In this document: positions 8,401 to 15,531 of the stretch, piece by piece
Position numbering within the stretch: the stretch's first letter is position 1
How the letters are laid out: each line of letters begins with the position of its first letter
UHGV virus genome: UHGV-0113711
Reading direction: 5' to 3' (one strand)
From: a virus
Length of the DNA stretch: 34,173 nt
Position numbers and translations under genes: made by a program
The notes under the pieces: model-generated
Told to the model about the DNA's origin: nothing
Databases searched by the model: none
The model's input: the letters and a program-made list of their open reading frames with translations, nothing else

Positions 8401-8587
8401 ATATACTCCTTTGTAAAACTATATTTATAGCCTCCATAACATTACAAAAGAATGATATTTTTAATTTGAGGTGTCGTCCAAATATGATTATATTCCAAAG
8501 TGACATTAATGAATATTGTCCCGACTACGGAATAGGGATTAAAATAAACCGTAACCGGGAAATATATTTATTATCCATTTTTAACCA

Positions 8588-10357
8588 TCATGGATAGTAC
8601 AAATTTTTAAAGTGATTATTAATATCAACCATAGCATCAAGAATTGGTTTGAACAATGAAAAATCTATAGTCTGTCTATTTTCTCTGATAATATTGTTGG
8701 CAAACCTGTCTTTTCCAAAAGTAGTAGTGCTATCATGATTATTACTTTTATCAAAGGATTTACCGTTAATTGTCTTTGTCAGAACTTCATCTTTGAAAAA
8801 GTCTTCCATGCACGATTGTTTATCACCAGCCAATAGTGGAGTTAACAATACGTAGAGGTTATTCTCTAAATGTAAAAATTTATGTTTTCTTACGTCCTCT
8901 GATTTTCTAGGCAGGTGAGAATATTCTTTGATTATATTATTAATAAAATCAGATGGCCCAGTGTCATTATCCAAAACAATTATTACTGGATTTTTAGGCG
9001 GTTGTCTTTCAAATTTCTTGCATTGTTCTCTATGCCTTCTAAAGAATCTTACATAGTCAGCAGCCCCACCGTAGAGGTCTAAAAAATATTCCTTTTTTGC
9101 GTTTGTTTTGAATAACGTAATATTTAAAATTCTATTCTTTGTTCTATCGTCAACTCTAACCAGAGCAGGATAACTTAAATACAAAGAATCAATTGCACAT
9201 TTCAAATAAATTGGATCTGTTTTACCTTCTGTCAAAACTGTAGGCTTTATATTCCCATAAAAATACTTATAATGAAGAAAGTTACTGAATGCTGTCTCTC
9301 TTGAATTCAATTTGAGAGTAAAATTAATTCCAGTTTTCTTTAGCACATATTTTTCTGGGAGTGTATGTTTTTTAGCGTTAATGTTATTATACTTATCAAG
9401 CATATCAATATAAACGAAGCGGCCTTCAAGTTCATTTAGAGTACCTTTTCGCGGTTTTCCACTAATATCCAAAAGGGTAAAATCCCCTTCTTTATAAAGT
9501 GCATGCGCCATAGCTCTGGTTTTTTTAATATAATCTTTATTGACATTTATTTTTTTGTTTACGGTTAAACCTGTTACTTCCTGCCTTGATGTATGCCGCA
9601 ATATTCTGGTCTTATTATTATTAATTTTAAATCCAGCTTTTTCAATTTCATTAACTAACAATGGTCCTAACTCGTTAGAATTCTCATTTATAACAATTGA
9701 GTCAGGAAACTGATTTTTGTTAGTTGAGAATGTTATATCATCTGCATATCGACTATAACTGCATCCATTAGAAAGTGCCAACTTTGACAATCTAATATCT
9801 AAAATATTACATATAAGATTGCTTATTACAGGAGAGCAAGGACTTCCTTGCGGAAGTTTTCCATCATAGCAAGCTATCTGCGCAATTATAGTTGCTATTG
9901 ATGGGTGCAAATTAAAATATTGATTCGCGATAAAATAACCACGGACCCTACCGAAATTAAATGTAGGGAAAAAATCCTCAAGATCAATATTTAAAACATT
10001 GGTTTTATTTCTATGTCTTTCTGCATTTGTTATTATTGTTTTATTTTTCTCAAATCCATGAGATAAGCTAGGGGTGATATTATTTGTTTTCCATATTTCG
10101 CTCTGACAAACATACAATAAATCTGATAAACGCCTTTGTATGTCTTTTAGTTTTTCAGTAGGCGCAAATATCTCTCTGTCACCTCCAGACTTCTTTTTTA
10201 TAATAAATCTTTCATATTGATGCTCAGGTCGTATTCTGTACAGGACATTAGTAAGAAAAGAAACTTTAATTTGAAGTAAGCGTGCAAACTCAAATTTGGT
10301 CTTGCATGACTTGAGTCTTTCTAAGTAGGAGGGAGTGAACATAATAGTAAATTCCAT
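8588..10357 (-). CDS. Retron-type reverse transcriptase with C-terminal Toprim domain (Ec67-family architecture)
   Basis: Reverse-transcriptase motifs are KKSGGDREIFAPT (box 1/2), LNIDLEDFFPTFNF (box A), LPQGSPCSPVISNLICNILD (box B'), YSRYADDITFST (box C, YADD) and SRQEVTGLTVN. The C-terminal ~250 aa carry Toprim signatures TVLTEGKTDPIYLK (conserved Glu) and PVIIVLDNDTGPSD (DxD). Size (584-589 aa) and block order match my recollection of the Ec67 reverse transcriptase (586 aa). The true start may be the Met at 10342. Confidence 0.9.
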   Translation of the reverse strand: MEFTIMFTPSYLERLKSCKTKFEFARLLQIKVSFLTNVLYRIRPEHQYERFIIKKKSGGDREIFAPTEKLKDIQRRLSDLLYVCQSEIWKTNNITPSLSHGFEKNKTIITNAERHRNKTNVLNIDLEDFFPTFNFGRVRGYFIANQYFNLHPSIATIIAQIACYDGKLPQGSPCSPVISNLICNILDIRLSKLALSNGCSYSRYADDITFSTNKNQFPDSIVINENSNELGPLLVNEIEKAGFKINNNKTRILRHTSRQEVTGLTVNKKINVNKDYIKKTRAMAHALYKEGDFTLLDISGKPRKGTLNELEGRFVYIDMLDKYNNINAKKHTLPEKYVLKKTGINFTLKLNSRETAFSNFLHYKYFYGNIKPTVLTEGKTDPIYLKCAIDSLYLSYPALVRVDDRTKNRILNITLFKTNAKKEYFLDLYGGAADYVRFFRRHREQCKKFERQPPKNPVIIVLDNDTGPSDFINNIIKEYSHLPRKSEDVRKHKFLHLENNLYVLLTPLLAGDKQSCMEDFFKDEVLTKTINGKSFDKSNNHDSTTTFGKDRFANNIIRENRQTIDFSLFKPILDAMVDINNHFKNLYYP

Positions 10358-10373
10358 TATTAATTATGTTATT

Positions 10374-10502
10374 GCACATGCAGGCACTCTTACGCATTTC
10401 AAAGTGACGCCCAAGAAGATCCGACGTCCGTCAGAGGCGAATACTGCCGACCTTTTAATCACTGATTGCGATACCACAACCAACAAATCTACCTGCATGT
10501 GC
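10374..10502 (-). ncRNA. Candidate retron msr-msd non-coding RNA bounded by a1/a2 inverted repeats (approximate)
   Basis: Perfect 11-bp inverted repeat: gcacatgcagg (10374..10384) and cctgcatgtgc (10492..10502), spanning 129 bp immediately 5' of the reverse-transcriptase start on the minus strand. This is the position and scale expected for retron a2/a1. The internal msr/msd boundary and branch G are not determined. Confidence 0.5.
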
Positions 10503-10787
10503 CTTGCTAATTTATCATAGTTAACAATCAAAACAAGCACTTTTGAAAATGGCTGTATCTTATTGATTAACTAATCATGGTCAAAGCCGAACATTCCTCG
10601 TGAAGATTGTTAGAATTTGAGATCTTTACGAGCACTTAACAGACTGTCAGATTCAGTCATGGAGCAAGTTGAATGCAATGTTATCATGTATCACTTTTTC
10701 TTTTTCGTCGTTAAGATGGTTCATAAAACTTACCATTAAGTCGATTGATAACTAGTAATTACATCTGTAGGTTCTCTTGATGATTTG

Positions 10788-11528
10788 TCAGAGGGCATTT
10801 GAGCTAAATAAAGTTGATTCGACGAGTTCAATTGCTTCATCTTCGATAGTTGATTTGTCCATTGTTTTGGTCGGCTCAGAAATATCAATTTTCACAATTA
10901 CAATCTCGTCATCAAAAGATAGTTTTTCACCCCTTCTTTCTTTACGTAAAACGCTGTTCTCTTTGCTGAGTTCAGCGTTTTTCCTTTCTAACTCTGCGAC
11001 TCTTTTCATCAAATCTTCCATTTTGGAATTCACAACATCTAGTCTCTGCTCAGTCGGAAATTCAATACTTTCGATGATTTCAATAAATTCACCAGTATAC
11101 ATCTGAACAAACTGCTCGGTGTCTTTGATCTTCTGCATTCTTAGATCTGAACAGAAAGCTTTCCACGAGTTCTTTTTACCGTTAATTTCACAAGCAACGA
11201 TAACAGCATTATCGGTTGTATAAGCAACGATTGCAGGCAGATTATTAACTTCGGTCGTACCGATTTCGAAGCTATGCATATTTTTTACAGTCACAGCATT
11301 TTCAATCTTCTGTAACATCTTAGCTCGAACATTACGATGAATATCTATAGCTTTAACAAGAGCTTTCAGGCTGTTTTTGTTATTGGTCATTCTATTAACT
11401 TTGATAATATTTCTGTTCAGGCTTGCTTTAACTGTTCTGTCTAGATTTTCGAAGACTGCAAATTTGAAATTCAATTTATTTGCCTTTATTGATTGGTTGA
11501 GTTCTGATATTACGTTTTTTGCAAGCAT
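10788..11528 (-). CDS. Hypothetical protein (246 aa) with coiled-coil C-terminus
   Basis: Long ORF on the same strand as the retron and upstream of it. C-terminal KMEDLMKRVAELERKNAELSKENSVLRKERR is coiled-coil-like. The start may be a later Met because the 5' end overlaps the upstream small ORF. Confidence 0.6.
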   Translation of the reverse strand: MLAKNVISELNQSIKANKLNFKFAVFENLDRTVKASLNRNIIKVNRMTNNKNSLKALVKAIDIHRNVRAKMLQKIENAVTVKNMHSFEIGTTEVNNLPAIVAYTTDNAVIVACEINGKKNSWKAFCSDLRMQKIKDTEQFVQMYTGEFIEIIESIEFPTEQRLDVVNSKMEDLMKRVAELERKNAELSKENSVLRKERRGEKLSFDDEIVIVKIDISEPTKTMDKSTIEDEAIELVESTLFSSNAL

Positions 11529-11634
11529 TATACATCGTTGCTTTATTCATTTGTTTAGATTCTGCAATTTGCTGAAATGTCTCACCAGAGTCTAAGCGAG
11601 ATTCAATTTCGAATTTGTTAGGTATAAATTTCAT
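11476..11634 (-). CDS. Small putative HTH DNA-binding protein (52 aa)
   Basis: Internal Met of track ORF 11476..11670. ETFQQIAESKQMNKATMYNACKK resembles a helix-turn-helix. Weak ribosome-binding site; overlaps the downstream 246-aa ORF by ~50 bp in another frame. Confidence 0.35.
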   Translation of the reverse strand: MKFIPNKFEIESRLDSGETFQQIAESKQMNKATMYNACKKRNIRTQPINKGK

Positions 11635-11665
11635 GGGGTTGCCTTTTTTATTGAATTGAAAAATA

Positions 11666-11683
11666 AGCACTCCGAAGAGTGCT
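11666..11683. terminator. Hairpin agcactc-cgaa-gagtgct flanked by A/T runs
   Basis: 7-bp stem with a 4-nt loop. The upstream A-run (plus strand) would be a T-run for minus-strand transcripts, so it may insulate the HTH gene from the non-coding region to its right. Confidence 0.35.
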
Positions 11684-12016
11684 TTAAACTTAAGGAATTT
11701 TTAAATGAACTAAGCTAATTGCTTATATCTTATTTTATGACGGATAAAGTCAGTAGTAAACAAACGAGAGAAAATAACGAGGAAGAAGAAACTCTCTGTG
11801 TTCATACTAATATTTATATAGTTCACCGAAAGTGTAAACAAAGTCCGAAAAATAATTTAGTGAAAAGCAGGTGCATTGATGCACATCAAAACGCATCGAT
11901 AACGCATCGATGCGACTCGGAGAAGTGCATGGACCCTAGAAAAAATCGCCCTATAAGAACAATTGGATAAAGATGAACTGGAAGGATATAGAAGCAGTAC
12001 AAAACCTGGAAAACAT

Positions 12017-12159
12017 AGCGAAGCGAGCAGATTGCGCGAAGCGCGGGCGAAGCCCTAATTGATAAACATTAGCGCGAAGCGCGACAGATAACACTATCGA
12101 ACTTGATTACTAGCTACTGATTAGATGTTTCTAGATAAAGATTATTAGCGCTTCGCGCG
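12017..12159. repeat. Cluster of GCGAAGC mini-hairpin motifs (four direct, one inverted) in an otherwise AT-rich non-coding region
   Basis: GCGAAGC at 12017..12023, 12035..12041 (within gcgcgaagcgcg), 12046..12052 (within gggcgaagccc) and 12073..12079 (within gcgcgaagcgcg). The inverted copy gcgcttcgcgcg is at 12148..12159. Confidence 0.6.
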
Positions 12160-13647: not shown

Positions 13648-15531
13648 ATGAAAAACTCAAATAAACTGAAAAGTATCTTACAGAATGCAAAGCGCTTTTT
13701 AATGCCACCTCCTGACTACACTCCGTCCGAGTGGGTCGAACAGTACCTGAAATTCCCTGATGGTCCTTATACAGGGCAGCCGATGAAACTGTTTGAGTTT
13801 CAGAAAGGCATGATTGACGTCATTAAAGAACGTAAGAAGAAAATCGTCTTCGAGACTTCTGCCCAGATTGGCAAGACAACCATCTTGAACGGAATTCTGT
13901 TCTATAAGTCTGCTACTGATCCCGGTAACGCTGGTGTCTTGCAGTCAACCGGTAAAGAGACGACTCAATGGCTATCAGGCAAGATTCGCCCAATGATTGA
14001 CGAATCGGAAGAAATGCAACGAATCGTCACCGACAAGAACGACAGAAACGCAGTGAATAACACCAGTCAAATTCAGCTACGTGCTGGAGGCTTTTGGTAT
14101 TTCATGTCGCTCAATAGCCCTTCTCACTTACGCGGTAAAACTCTTCCGCTGATGTTGCTTGATGAAGTTGACGCAGTTGAAACAGACACAGAAGAAGGCA
14201 ACCCGATTATCATCGCGGAACAACGTGCTACGACGTTCGGTGAAGACGCTCGTGTTTTCATTAGCTCGACGCCTACAAGTAAATACGGTGCTATCCACAC
14301 GCAGTATGAAGCATCCGACAAGCGCAAGTATCATGTTCCCTGTCCTACATGTGGTCATAAGCACGAACTGACGTGGGAGAATATCAAATTCGACTGGGTA
14401 AAAATCGATGGTAAATCATTACCTGATCCTAACTCTGCCAGAATTGAATGTCCTGAATGTCATCACGCTTTCTCTGAAGGCGACCGAGCACGAGCAATTA
14501 AACAAGGTGAATGGATTATTCATCAACCTGAAAGTCGAATTGCTGGATTCCACGTAAGTCGTTTATACAGCCCAATGAGTTCTATCAAATCAGTTGTTGA
14601 AGACTATAAGCAAGCATGGCAAACGTTCAGCTTGTCAACGTTTTATAACACTGTTCTTGGTCTACCGTTTGATGATTTAAACGAAGACATTGAGGTTAGT
14701 AAATTAGAAACACTCAAGACGAATATCGGCATCAGCAATATACCAGAAGACACGTTGTTTTTAACCGCTGGGGTTGACCAACAGCAAGACCGTTTAGAAG
14801 TAACCTTGATGGGTCACAACGAACGAACCGTTTATATTCTTGCACATCGTAGCTTTATGACAATGAACGCTGAGGTTATCGATTCCCCTGCTTATAAAGA
14901 ACTTCTTGCATACGTTAAAGCACCGTTCAGAACAGCTTTGGGAAGAAAGGTTCCTTTAGCGTGGGTGAACGTCGATAGCTCAAACGGTCGAGCAACTAAA
15001 ACAATCTATCGTTTCTGCTCTCAGTGGACAAACCTGAAAGCAATTAAAGGTGCCAGCTCTGTTGATGCCCCTTATGTTCCAACGAAAATCACGAAAACCG
15101 GTGGTTATGAACTTTATATGATTGGTGTAAACCAAGGAAAAAACTTAGTTCGTGAACTGCTAAACAGAAGCGTGAAATCTGGAAATACACCAGTCAGAGT
15201 CGAAATCTCTGATGATGTTCCAGATGATTACTGCGAACAGCTTATGTCCGAAGAATTAAAACGCTCTGGTAATACTGTTAGATGGGTTATTAAACAAGGC
15301 GGTGTTCGTAACGAAGGTCTTGACTGCTTTAACTACGGTTATTGCGCGCGTCTGCAAGTTCTAGAGAAAATCAAATTTCACGAGTGGAGGAAACTCGCTG
15401 CTAAATCTGATATTGAAATGCCAGAAGAACAAAACGAAACAAATTCTCCTGTTATTCAAACTCATGAACCTCGTCGAAACATTATCAAACGAAACAGACC
15501 AGTTAATAAGCCTCGTGGTTTCGGATTATAA
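13648..15531 (+). CDS. Terminase large subunit, lambda GpA family
   Basis: N-terminal PPPDYTPSEWVEQYLKFPDG parallels the lambda A N-terminus. The ATPase region IVFETSAQIGKTT and the zinc-finger-like HVPCPTCGHKHELTWENIKFD...ECPECHH parallel lambda A VACPHCGEEQYLKFGD. Length 627 aa. Confidence 0.85.
   Translation: MKNSNKLKSILQNAKRFLMPPPDYTPSEWVEQYLKFPDGPYTGQPMKLFEFQKGMIDVIKERKKKIVFETSAQIGKTTILNGILFYKSATDPGNAGVLQSTGKETTQWLSGKIRPMIDESEEMQRIVTDKNDRNAVNNTSQIQLRAGGFWYFMSLNSPSHLRGKTLPLMLLDEVDAVETDTEEGNPIIIAEQRATTFGEDARVFISSTPTSKYGAIHTQYEASDKRKYHVPCPTCGHKHELTWENIKFDWVKIDGKSLPDPNSARIECPECHHAFSEGDRARAIKQGEWIIHQPESRIAGFHVSRLYSPMSSIKSVVEDYKQAWQTFSLSTFYNTVLGLPFDDLNEDIEVSKLETLKTNIGISNIPEDTLFLTAGVDQQQDRLEVTLMGHNERTVYILAHRSFMTMNAEVIDSPAYKELLAYVKAPFRTALGRKVPLAWVNVDSSNGRATKTIYRFCSQWTNLKAIKGASSVDAPYVPTKITKTGGYELYMIGVNQGKNLVRELLNRSVKSGNTPVRVEISDDVPDDYCEQLMSEELKRSGNTVRWVIKQGGVRNEGLDCFNYGYCARLQVLEKIKFHEWRKLAAKSDIEMPEEQNETNSPVIQTHEPRRNIIKRNRPVNKPRGFGL

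What the first reader, a model, noticed from the sequence alone, without database searches (positions are those of the whole stretch)
10374..10502. Perfect 11-bp inverted repeats bounding a 129-bp candidate msr/msd
gcacatgcagg (10374..10384) and cctgcatgtgc (10492..10502) are exact reverse complements located 16-31 nt upstream of the reverse-transcriptase start on its strand. Retron ncRNAs are bounded by a1/a2 inverted repeats at exactly this position, and 129 nt fits a short msr plus a ~65-70 nt msd. I could not define a clean promoter, the branch G or the msd stem by eye.
Basis: seen in the sequence. Interest (0 to 1): 0.7.

Follow-up and report, generated by a model that had tools for sequence, protein, structure and literature searches.

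The report
Ec67-family retron ncRNA gene (msr-msd)
The inverted repeat is real and bounds the non-coding RNA gene of a retron closely related to the well-studied E. coli retron Ec67/Eco2, so it is an unannotated but ordinary member of a known anti-phage system.

Summary
GCACATGCAGG (10374-10384) and CCTGCATGTGC (10492-10502) are exact reverse complements. They lie 16 or 31 nt upstream of a minus-strand gene whose product is a retron RT-TOPRIM fusion of type I-C (PADLOC E = 7e-216). It is 51% identical to Retron Ec67/Eco2, which has solved structures.

The 129-nt minus-strand element aligns along its length with the experimentally defined Eco2 ncRNA. The shared features are the a1/a2 stem (with compensatory changes), the invariant AGA holding the branching G (10489 here), the msr hairpin (10483-10462) and the UAAGAGU box before a2.

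A covariance model built from five E. coli variants found a full-length copy directly upstream of the RT gene in 74 of 80 distant loci. Covariation there is strong.

- an extended -10 promoter (TG 10517-10516, TAAATT 10514-10509);
- the branch G;
- a predicted msDNA of about 64 nt (+ strand 10388-10451).

The window is an E. coli prophage (100% match to strain MS 115-1). RefSeq already names the RT "retron Ec67 family"; the ncRNA is not annotated.

Verdict: a new member of a known kind, of low interest.

The parts
10509..10517 (-). Candidate extended -10 promoter: TG (10517-10516), one base, then hexamer TAAATT (10514-10509). The predicted transcription start is at about 10503/10502, the first base of a1.
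   Evidence: The pattern TG-TA---T is invariant in five E. coli Ec67-family variants whose flanks are otherwise diverged. Similarity to about 520 other E. coli genomes starts at 10521, just upstream of it. The spacing to a1 matches that of Eco2, whose RNA position 1 lies 7 nt after the hexamer. This is inferred; there are no transcript data.
10374..10502 (-). Retron ncRNA gene (msr-msd), 129 nt from a1 to a2
   Evidence: Minus-strand fold is -52 kcal/mol, z = -4.6. It aligns end to end with the Eco2 ncRNA. The covariance model finds homologous full-length elements upstream of the RT in 74 of 80 distant loci.
10490..10502 (-). a1 arm: GCACAUGCAGG plus U and A, 13 nt as RNA
   Evidence: The stem is kept in all 5 E. 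coli variants, with changes on both sides at 4 of 13 pairs. Across 74 distinct sequences 95.8% of cells are paired and 12 of 13 pairs show compensatory changes.
10374..10386 (-). a2 arm: U and G plus CCUGCAUGUGC
   Evidence: Same as for a1.
10489..10489 (-). Predicted branching guanosine, whose 2'-OH primes msDNA synthesis; the equivalent of Eco2 G15
   Evidence: It is the G of the A-G-A directly after a1. That column is G in 74 of 75 aligned elements, and both flanking A columns are 75 of 75. It aligns with Eco2 G15 (G15 per PMC12916289 and PMC12405507). This is inferred by homology.
10462..10483 (-). msr hairpin: 9 pairs, loop GUAU
   Evidence: Seen in the minimum-energy fold. It is conserved, with compensatory changes at all 9 pairs across the family. 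It corresponds to the Eco2 msrRNA stem-loop that bridges two RT subunits (PMC12405507).
10388..10451 (-). msd template, RNA positions 52-115. The predicted msDNA is the + strand read 10388 to 10451: 5'-TCTTACGCATTTCAAAGTGACGCCCAAGAAGATCCGACGTCCGTCAGAGGCGAATACTGCCGAC-3' (64 nt). The 3' end is uncertain by 1-2 nt.
   Evidence: Obtained by position-for-position transfer from Eco2, whose template runs G52-A118 and gives dT1-dC67 (checked against PMC12405507). The base before the stop is G here and U in Eco2; it is G in 10 of 75 relatives.
10386..10392 (-). Conserved box UAAGAGU at the 3' end of msd and the start of a2. The fifth base, A at 10388, templates the first msDNA nucleotide.
   Evidence: The corresponding alignment columns (261, 263-266) are 74 or 75 of 75 identical across the family.
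8588..10342 (-). Retron RT-TOPRIM fusion gene (584 aa). An alternative ATG at 10357 would give 589 aa.
   Evidence: PADLOC RT-Toprim_I-C E = 7e-216. Pfam RVT_1. Best PDB matches are Retron Ec67 protein 9lm3 and 9i2f, E about 5e-189. It is 51% identical to Eco2 over 581 residues, with F46, R184, YADD 199-202, EGKTD 372-376 and DND 458-460 all present. RefSeq WP_000494974.1 is named 'retron Ec67 family RNA-directed DNA polymerase/endonuclease'.

Best explanation
The 129-nt element at 10502-10374 on the minus strand is the msr-msd non-coding RNA gene of a type I-C (Ec67/Eco2-family) retron carried on an E. coli prophage.

The proposed mechanism has these steps:
1. An extended -10 promoter at 10517-10509 starts transcription at or next to the first base of a1. 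The same transcript probably continues into the RT-TOPRIM gene.
2. In the RNA, a1 (10502-10490) pairs with a2 (10386-10374). This places the branching G (10489) next to the 3' end of the msd template (A at 10388).
3. The RT domain recognises the msr hairpin (10483-10462), primes from the 2'-OH of that G, and copies the template up to about 10451. The product is a branched RNA-DNA molecule with a DNA part of about 64 nt.
4. By analogy with Eco2, three RT-TOPRIM subunits and three msDNAs form a closed complex in which the msDNA cages the TOPRIM nuclease.
5. A phage nuclease (DenB of T-even phages, A1 of T5) degrades the msDNA. This frees TOPRIM to cut tRNA or other RNA, stops translation and aborts the infection.

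What is shown here: the sequence anatomy, the homology to Eco2, RNA-level covariation of a1/a2 and the msr hairpin, and intact catalytic motifs. What is inferred: the promoter and transcription start, the branch position, the msDNA ends, complex assembly, the trigger and the target.
For: RT identity:
- PADLOC RT-Toprim_I-C, E = 7e-216.
- The best solved structures are Retron Ec67 protein, E about 5e-189.
- 51% identity to Eco2, with all residues the Eco2 papers name as functional conserved (residues from PMC12916289 and PMC12405507).
- TOPRIM motifs EGxxD and DxD, as defined for I-C1/I-C3 (PMC7736814).

ncRNA:
- The Eco2 ncRNA was located at 100% identity in E. coli S10, the source strain of the Eco2 structure paper.
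- It aligns with the window element over the whole length.
- In five E. coli variants the a1/a2 stem has no broken pair and shows A-U to G-C and C-G to U-A exchanges.
- Model R1 finds one full-length hit per locus, on the RT strand and ending about 5-70 nt before the RT match in 73 of 74 loci (L085: about 185 nt), in 74 of 80 loci from many phyla.
- On that alignment 86% of cells are paired, against 33-46% for slid controls, and 0 of 500 shuffles reach the observed covariation.
- In a check that uses no model, 67 of 79 loci have a perfect inverted repeat of 9 bp or more (median 12) spanning 117-143 nt, in most of them followed directly by GATTT. Only 1 of 79 shuffled controls has one.

Strand: G-U pairs in both helices and a 20 kcal/mol advantage for the minus strand.

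Cassette boundaries: only 8608-10521 is shared with about 520 other E. coli genomes.
Against: - There are no expression, msDNA or phage-challenge data for this locus.
- No Rfam family matches, either at gathering scores or at E up to 10.
- The 11-bp repeat alone is within chance expectation for a 34-kb window.
- Model R1 includes the window's own sequence, so the window's score of 135.9 bits is by construction. The alignment used for pair counts was fitted to the model.
- The base before the predicted stop is G rather than the U51 that is flipped out in Eco2, so the msDNA 3' end may differ by a nucleotide or two.
- The central msd sequence is not similar to that of Eco2, so the trigger specificity and the DNA three-way junction cannot be carried over with confidence.
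- The -35 region is poor, and a separate sigma-70-like site lies further upstream at 10584-10557. The true transcription start is therefore open.
Confidence: 0.93

Rival explanations
1. The ncRNA and RT are a decayed or silent relic. The sequence descends from a retron but no longer makes msDNA or defends, for example because the promoter or some element outside the conserved cassette has been lost in this prophage context.
For: This exact locus occurs in only 2 of 5,426 complete E. coli genomes. The -35 region is poor and no terminator was found. No experimental data exist.
Against: The RT-TOPRIM reading frame is full length with every catalytic and RNA-contact residue kept. The ncRNA has all nearly invariant family positions and a perfect a1/a2 stem. 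The extended -10 signature is kept.
Confidence: 0.05
2. The inverted repeat is a protein-binding operator, or a transcription terminator of the upstream minus-strand gene (10788-11528), and not an RNA structural element of a retron.
For: It lies in an intergenic region between two genes on the same strand. The promoter/terminator scan flags a small internal hairpin at 10435-10420 as terminator-like.
Against: The arms are 107 nt apart and a2 is followed by AAUAACAUAAUU, not a T run. The arms change sequence between relatives while keeping complementarity, including through G-U intermediates, which is selection at the RNA level. The arm is always followed by the AGA branch motif and the conserved msr hairpin. 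The flagged internal hairpin lies inside the msd template and is not conserved.
Confidence: 0.01
3. The repeat is a chance match, or the region encodes one of the small mechanical ORFs (10335-10520 on the + strand, 61 aa; 10364-10540 on the - strand, 58 aa).
For: About 3.4 perfect 11-bp inverted repeats of this spacing are expected per 34 kb. Both ORFs are listed.
Against: The closest variant (SK1144, 87% identical) differs by two separate 1-nt indels inside the element, which would shift either reading frame. Conservation follows base pairs, not codons. Homologous elements sit at the same place in 74 distant loci.
Confidence: 0.01

Closest known systems
Retron-Eco2 (Ec67), type I-C1, E. coli (PDB 9lm3, 9i2f, 9i2g, 9s1f; PMC12916289, PMC12405507)
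   Same: - Single-gene RT-TOPRIM fusion preceded by the ncRNA on the same strand.
- a1/a2 stem of 12-13 pairs, then A-G-A with the branching G.
- Nearly identical msr segment (AGAUUUGUUGGUUGUG..AUCGCAA.CAGUG).
- The G-A-G-U box before a2.
- Total length 129 nt against 132 nt.
- YADD, F46, R184, EGKTD and DND conserved.
- Carried on a prophage.
   Different: - The protein is only 51% identical.
- The central msd/msDNA sequence is unrelated, and the predicted msDNA is 64 nt against 67 nt.
- The base before the stop is G, not U.
- One nucleotide fewer between the -10 element and the branch G.
- Eco2 sits in a P2-like prophage between the replication endonuclease/DinI genes and the portal gene. 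This one sits between the terS and terL genes of a prophage with an HK97-family prohead protease, integrated beside ybiT.
The Ec67-family retron common in E. coli (SK1144, strains labelled O25b:H4-ST131, and about 520 complete genomes in all; RT WP_000476153.1)
   Same: The closest relative in E. coli. The RT is 72% identical. The ncRNA with its -10 region is 87% identical, with identical a1/a2 arms and an identical msr.
   Different: The genomic context differs: next to dhaR, an IS5 element and ABC-three-component-system genes, not in this prophage. There are several substitutions and two 1-nt indels in the msd part. As far as I could find it is also uncharacterised.
Retron-Eco1 (Ec86, type II-A) and other retrons in general
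   Same: The general retron plan: an ncRNA with terminal inverted repeats, a branching G, and an RT with a YADD motif. The RT domain matches Ec86 RT at E = 1.7e-32.
   Different: Eco1 has a separate effector and a long msd stem-loop. Here the effector is fused, and the msDNA has no strong predicted hairpin.

Membership tests
Retron (general) | A reverse transcriptase of the retron clade encoded next to the ncRNA | tested here: met
   In PADLOC every one of the 25 best families shown (of 50 matched) is a retron RT model, the best at E = 7e-216. PDB matches are Ec67, Ec86, Ec83, Ec78 and Eco8 RTs. YADD is present.
Retron (general) | An ncRNA bounded by inverted repeats a1/a2, on the RT strand, directly upstream of the RT gene | tested here: met
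   An 11-bp perfect repeat (13 pairs as RNA) 16 or 31 nt upstream of the RT start. The pairing is supported by compensatory changes and by a search that used no model.
Retron (general) | A conserved branching guanosine at the 3' end of a1 | tested here: met
   G10489 lies in the A-G-A motif; that column is G in 74 of 75 aligned relatives. It aligns to Eco2 G15. Its chemical role was not tested.
Retron (general) | Production of msDNA joined to the RNA by a 2'-5' bond | not testable with these tools
   This needs nucleic-acid extraction from the strain. The predicted product is given under parts.
Type I-C1 retron (Ec67/Eco2 family) | RT fused at its C-terminus to a TOPRIM domain with motif IV EGxxD and motif V DxD (PMC7736814); no separate effector gene | tested here: met
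   There are full-length matches to four RT-Toprim_I-C models. EGKTD 372-376 and DND 458-460 are present and invariant in 20 homologues. I did not place the RT in a tree to separate I-C1 from I-C3; I-C2 is excluded because it has DxE.
Type I-C1 retron (Ec67/Eco2 family) | An ncRNA homologous to the experimentally defined Eco2 ncRNA (a1, G15, msr stem-loop, template G52-A118, a2) | tested here: met
   The alignment is colinear, with identical msr core and end boxes. The family model recovers 74 of 80 distant loci.
Type I-C1 retron (Ec67/Eco2 family) | A 3:3 RT-TOPRIM/msDNA assembly, activated when a phage nuclease degrades the msDNA, leading to tRNA/RNA cleavage | not testable with these tools
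   Known only for Eco2 (PMC12916289, PMC12405507). The conserved contact residues F46 and R184 are compatible with it.
Any Rfam RNA family | A match to a curated covariance model | tested here: not met
   No match at gathering scores in the whole window. Only chance-level snoRNA/miRNA hits at E up to 10 around the element. So Rfam release 15 holds no model that recognises this ncRNA.

The most novel reading that the evidence does not exclude
The msr, the end boxes and the promoter are held nearly constant (87% identity to the variant common in E. coli, against 73% for the whole cassette), while the central msd diverges freely. This msDNA variant might therefore be tuned to a different phage trigger, or to escape a different phage anti-retron factor, than Eco2. 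Its position between terS and terL, next to a TIR gene, might mark a prophage hotspot for defence cargo. Both are extensions of known biology, not a new kind of system.
Probability: 0.15. Interest if true: 0.35.

Novelty: new member of a known kind. Interest (0 to 1): 0.15.

Why it matters
The practical value is for annotation. RefSeq names the RT but leaves the ncRNA unmarked, and Rfam has no model that finds it. The coordinates, the branch G and the predicted msDNA given here make the locus ready for testing. The alignment of 75 elements could seed a family model.

It adds a second, diverged natural msDNA (about 64 nt) to the Eco2 family. That could help work on which msDNA features set trigger sensitivity, or on retron-based editing tools. 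It does not open a new question.

Tried and rejected
- Rfam search at permissive and at gathering thresholds found nothing relevant.
- A megablast of 8000-12000 against the phage collection found no match.
- DNA folding of the predicted msDNA, looking for the classical msd hairpin, gave no fold better than shuffles for either this msDNA or Eco2's. I therefore do not claim an msd stem.
- The generic sigma-70 scan did not report the promoter I propose. It reported an upstream site at 10584-10557 that lies outside the conserved cassette. I prefer the extended -10 because it is conserved, but this remains an inference.
- Literature and supplement searches for the protein accession, the strain name and three sequence strings of the element found nothing.
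- My first script for chance statistics timed out and was rerun.
- I considered a terminator, an operator, small ORFs and a chance repeat, and rejected them; see the rival explanations.

Full report
**Observation.** The sequence shows GCACATGCAGG at 10374-10384 and CCTGCATGTGC at 10492-10502. The two are exact reverse complements with 107 nt between them (pair I13). A minus-strand ORF runs from 8588 to 10357 (589 aa).

A perfect 11-bp inverted repeat with a 30-300 nt loop is not rare in 34 kb. First-order Markov simulations of the window give 3.4 +/- 1.9, and the window has five. The chance of one within a given 300-nt stretch is about 0.9%. The repeat alone therefore proves little. What follows rests on the neighbouring gene and on comparison with relatives.

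**The neighbouring gene.**
- The ORF matches PADLOC's single-gene retron model RT-Toprim_I-C over its full length (E = 7e-216), and Pfam RVT_1.
- Among solved structures the best matches are the 'Retron Ec67 protein' chains 9lm3 and 9i2f/9i2g/9s1f (E about 5e-189).
- BLASTP against the Eco2 protein read from E. coli S10 gives 51% identity over 581 residues with two gaps.
- The residues the Eco2 structure papers single out are all present. These are F46 (stacks on the flipped template base), R184 (contacts the branching G), YADD 199-202, and the TOPRIM residues E374/D378/D460/D462, here E372/D376/D458/D460 (PMC12916289, PMC12405507). They are invariant in an alignment of 20 homologues.
- The motifs EGxxD and DxD are those Mestre et al. 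give for subtypes I-C1 and I-C3 (PMC7736814).

**Origin of the window.** The region is 100% identical to the chromosomes of E. coli MS 115-1 and 2021CK-01361. There RefSeq names the protein 'retron Ec67 family RNA-directed DNA polymerase/endonuclease', WP_000494974.1, starting at the ATG equivalent to 10342. No RNA feature is annotated. The surroundings are a prophage next to ybiT, with a serine recombinase, lysozyme, terminase, portal and an HK97-family prohead protease.

**The ncRNA.** I recalled the 132-nt Eco2 ncRNA from memory and checked it in two ways.
- It occurs at 100% identity in 14 E. coli genomes, including strain S10, which is the source named in PMC12405507. In each it lies directly before the Ec67-family gene.
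- Its numbering reproduces every detail the papers give: G15, U51/G52, dT1, and a msDNA ending CTGCC.

Aligned with the window's minus strand and three further E. coli variants, the elements are colinear. Four features are shared.
- The a1/a2 stem has 13 pairs, none broken in any of the five sequences. Four positions show exchanges such as A-U to G-C and C-G to U-A, with a U-G intermediate in Eco2.
- Directly after a1 comes A-G-A, whose G is Eco2's branching G15. In the window this G is at 10489.
- The next 30 nt (AGAUUUGUUGGUUGUGGUAUCGCAAUCAGUG) are almost identical to Eco2. They form the msr hairpin at 10483-10462.
- The element ends with the box UAAGAGU, which runs into a2.

Between these features the msd template is free to vary.

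Transferring the Eco2 template limits position for position gives a template at 10451-10388. The predicted msDNA is 64 nt: 5'-TCTTACGCATTTCAAAGTGACGCCCAAGAAGATCCGACGTCCGTCAGAGGCGAATACTGCCGAC-3'. Its 3' end is uncertain by a nucleotide or two, because the base before the stop is G here and U in Eco2.

**Wider comparison.** The RT family is very large, with 6,930 proteins at E <= 1e-30 among the candidates scored. I fetched 80 loci from one-genome-per-species contigs spanning Gammaproteobacteria, Alpha- and Betaproteobacteria, Acidobacteriota, Cyanobacteria, Nitrospira and others.

A covariance model built from the five E. coli elements found exactly one full-length match in 74 of the 80 loci. 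Every match was on the RT strand, and in 73 of the 74 it ended about 5-70 nt before the RT match (in L085, about 185 nt before). It found only the one match in the window. The window's own score is by construction, since its sequence is in the model.

On the resulting alignment:
- 86% of cells pair, against 33-46% when the partners are slid by 1-3 columns.
- 12 of 13 a1/a2 pairs and all 9 hairpin pairs show changes on both sides.
- No shuffle of 500 reaches the observed covariation.

That alignment is fitted to the model, so I added a check that uses no model. Taking the longest perfect inverted repeat with an 80-180 nt loop in the 260 nt upstream of each RT, 67 of 79 loci have 9 bp or more (median 12). 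The span is 117-143 nt, and in most of them the 5' arm is followed at once by GATTT. Only 1 of 79 shuffled controls reaches 9 bp. The window's 129 nt lies inside this range.

The columns A-G-A, the hairpin-closing C-G and the box A-x-G-A-G-U are 74 or 75 of 75 identical, and the window has all of them.

**Strand and rivals.**
- *Strand.* G-U pairs in both helices, and a fold of -52 against -32 kcal/mol, point to the minus strand as the RNA.
- *Terminator or operator.* a2 is followed by AAUAACAUAAUU, not a T run, and the arms are 107 nt apart. An intrinsic terminator is therefore not credible. An operator would not tolerate arms that change sequence while keeping complementarity.
- *Small ORFs.* Two mechanical ORFs overlap the element. 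The 87%-identical SK1144 variant has two separate 1-nt indels inside it.
- *Silent relic.* This cannot be excluded without experiments, but nothing in the sequence points to decay.

**Promoter.** The generic scan did not list a site just upstream of a1. It listed TTGACC-16-TAAGAT at 10584-10557. In the five-variant alignment, however, the only invariant bases upstream of a1 spell TG-TA---T, the extended -10 signature. In the window this is TG at 10517-10516 and TAAATT at 10514-10509. The seventh base after the hexamer is the first base of a1. In Eco2 it is RNA position 1.

The similarity shared with about 520 other E. coli genomes runs from 10521 to 8608: the -10 element, the ncRNA and the RT gene, and nothing else. 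This marks the retron as a discrete cassette. The promoter assignment is inference only.

**Mechanism.** Transferring the Eco2 findings (PMC12916289, PMC12405507) gives the following.
1. The RT primes on the 2'-OH of the branching G and copies msd.
2. Three RT-TOPRIM subunits and three msDNAs form a closed trimer, in which the msDNA cages the TOPRIM nuclease.
3. Phage nucleases DenB or A1 degrade the msDNA.
4. The freed TOPRIM cuts tRNA (or RNA more generally) and stops translation.

None of this was tested for the present locus. The predicted msDNA folds no better than shuffles, and neither does Eco2's. That agrees with the report that Eco2 msDNA forms an inter-strand three-way junction rather than a hairpin.

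**Novelty.** Type I-C retrons are said to make up about 11% of retrons and to be frequent on prophages (PMC12916289). The RT here is already named by RefSeq. The ncRNA is not annotated, and no Rfam family finds it. I found no paper or supplement that mentions this protein accession, this strain's retron or these sequences.

It is therefore a new, uncharacterised member of a well-understood kind. Interest is low. The main value is correct annotation, plus a second, diverged msDNA for comparative work on Eco2-type retrons.

Noticed in passing
window 6027-7222 (+): A 99-aa ORF directly abuts (start and stop share one base) a 298-aa protein with a C-terminal CAP12/Pycsar-type TIR domain (Pfam E = 4.8e-38). 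The TIR protein matches the PADLOC candidate defence family PDC-S35 (E about 1e-70). This is a second likely defence gene about 1.4 kb from the retron.
   Followed up: partly
window 7533-8081 (+) and 13648-15531 (+): The 182-aa ORF is a terminase small subunit (phrog_57, E = 3e-21), but the large subunit starts 5.5 kb further on. The interval holds the retron and several minus-strand ORFs of unknown function (246, 64 and 163 aa). This looks like cargo inserted between terS and terL.
   Followed up: partly
window 8608-10521: Only this block (RT gene, ncRNA and -10 element) is shared with about 520 other complete E. coli genomes, some labelled O25b:H4-ST131. In SK1144, the one such locus inspected, it sits beside dhaR, an IS5 element and ABC-three-component-system genes. 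The ncRNA end is 87% identical, while the block as a whole is 73% identical.
   Followed up: partly
window 12030-12159: The 16-nt unit ATTAGCGCGAAGCGCG occurs twice in direct orientation (12030, 12068), with a third copy at 12144 whose core is inverted (GCGCTTCGCGC). All lie in a stretch with few ORFs between the retron-side genes and the terminase. This could be a packaging or regulatory site.
   Followed up: no
L001 (E. coli MS 115-1) 5866-8974, against window 13648-15531: In MS 115-1 the terminase large-subunit gene is split by an IS3-family insertion. The window has it intact (627 aa). The window therefore comes from a copy without the IS, perhaps strain 2021CK-01361.
   Followed up: no
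L003 2550-4430 (E. coli S10): RefSeq annotates the canonical Eco2 RT with a start 120 nt too far upstream (626 aa). That reading frame runs through most of the validated ncRNA (2501-2632). The 586-aa protein starts at 2670.
   Followed up: no
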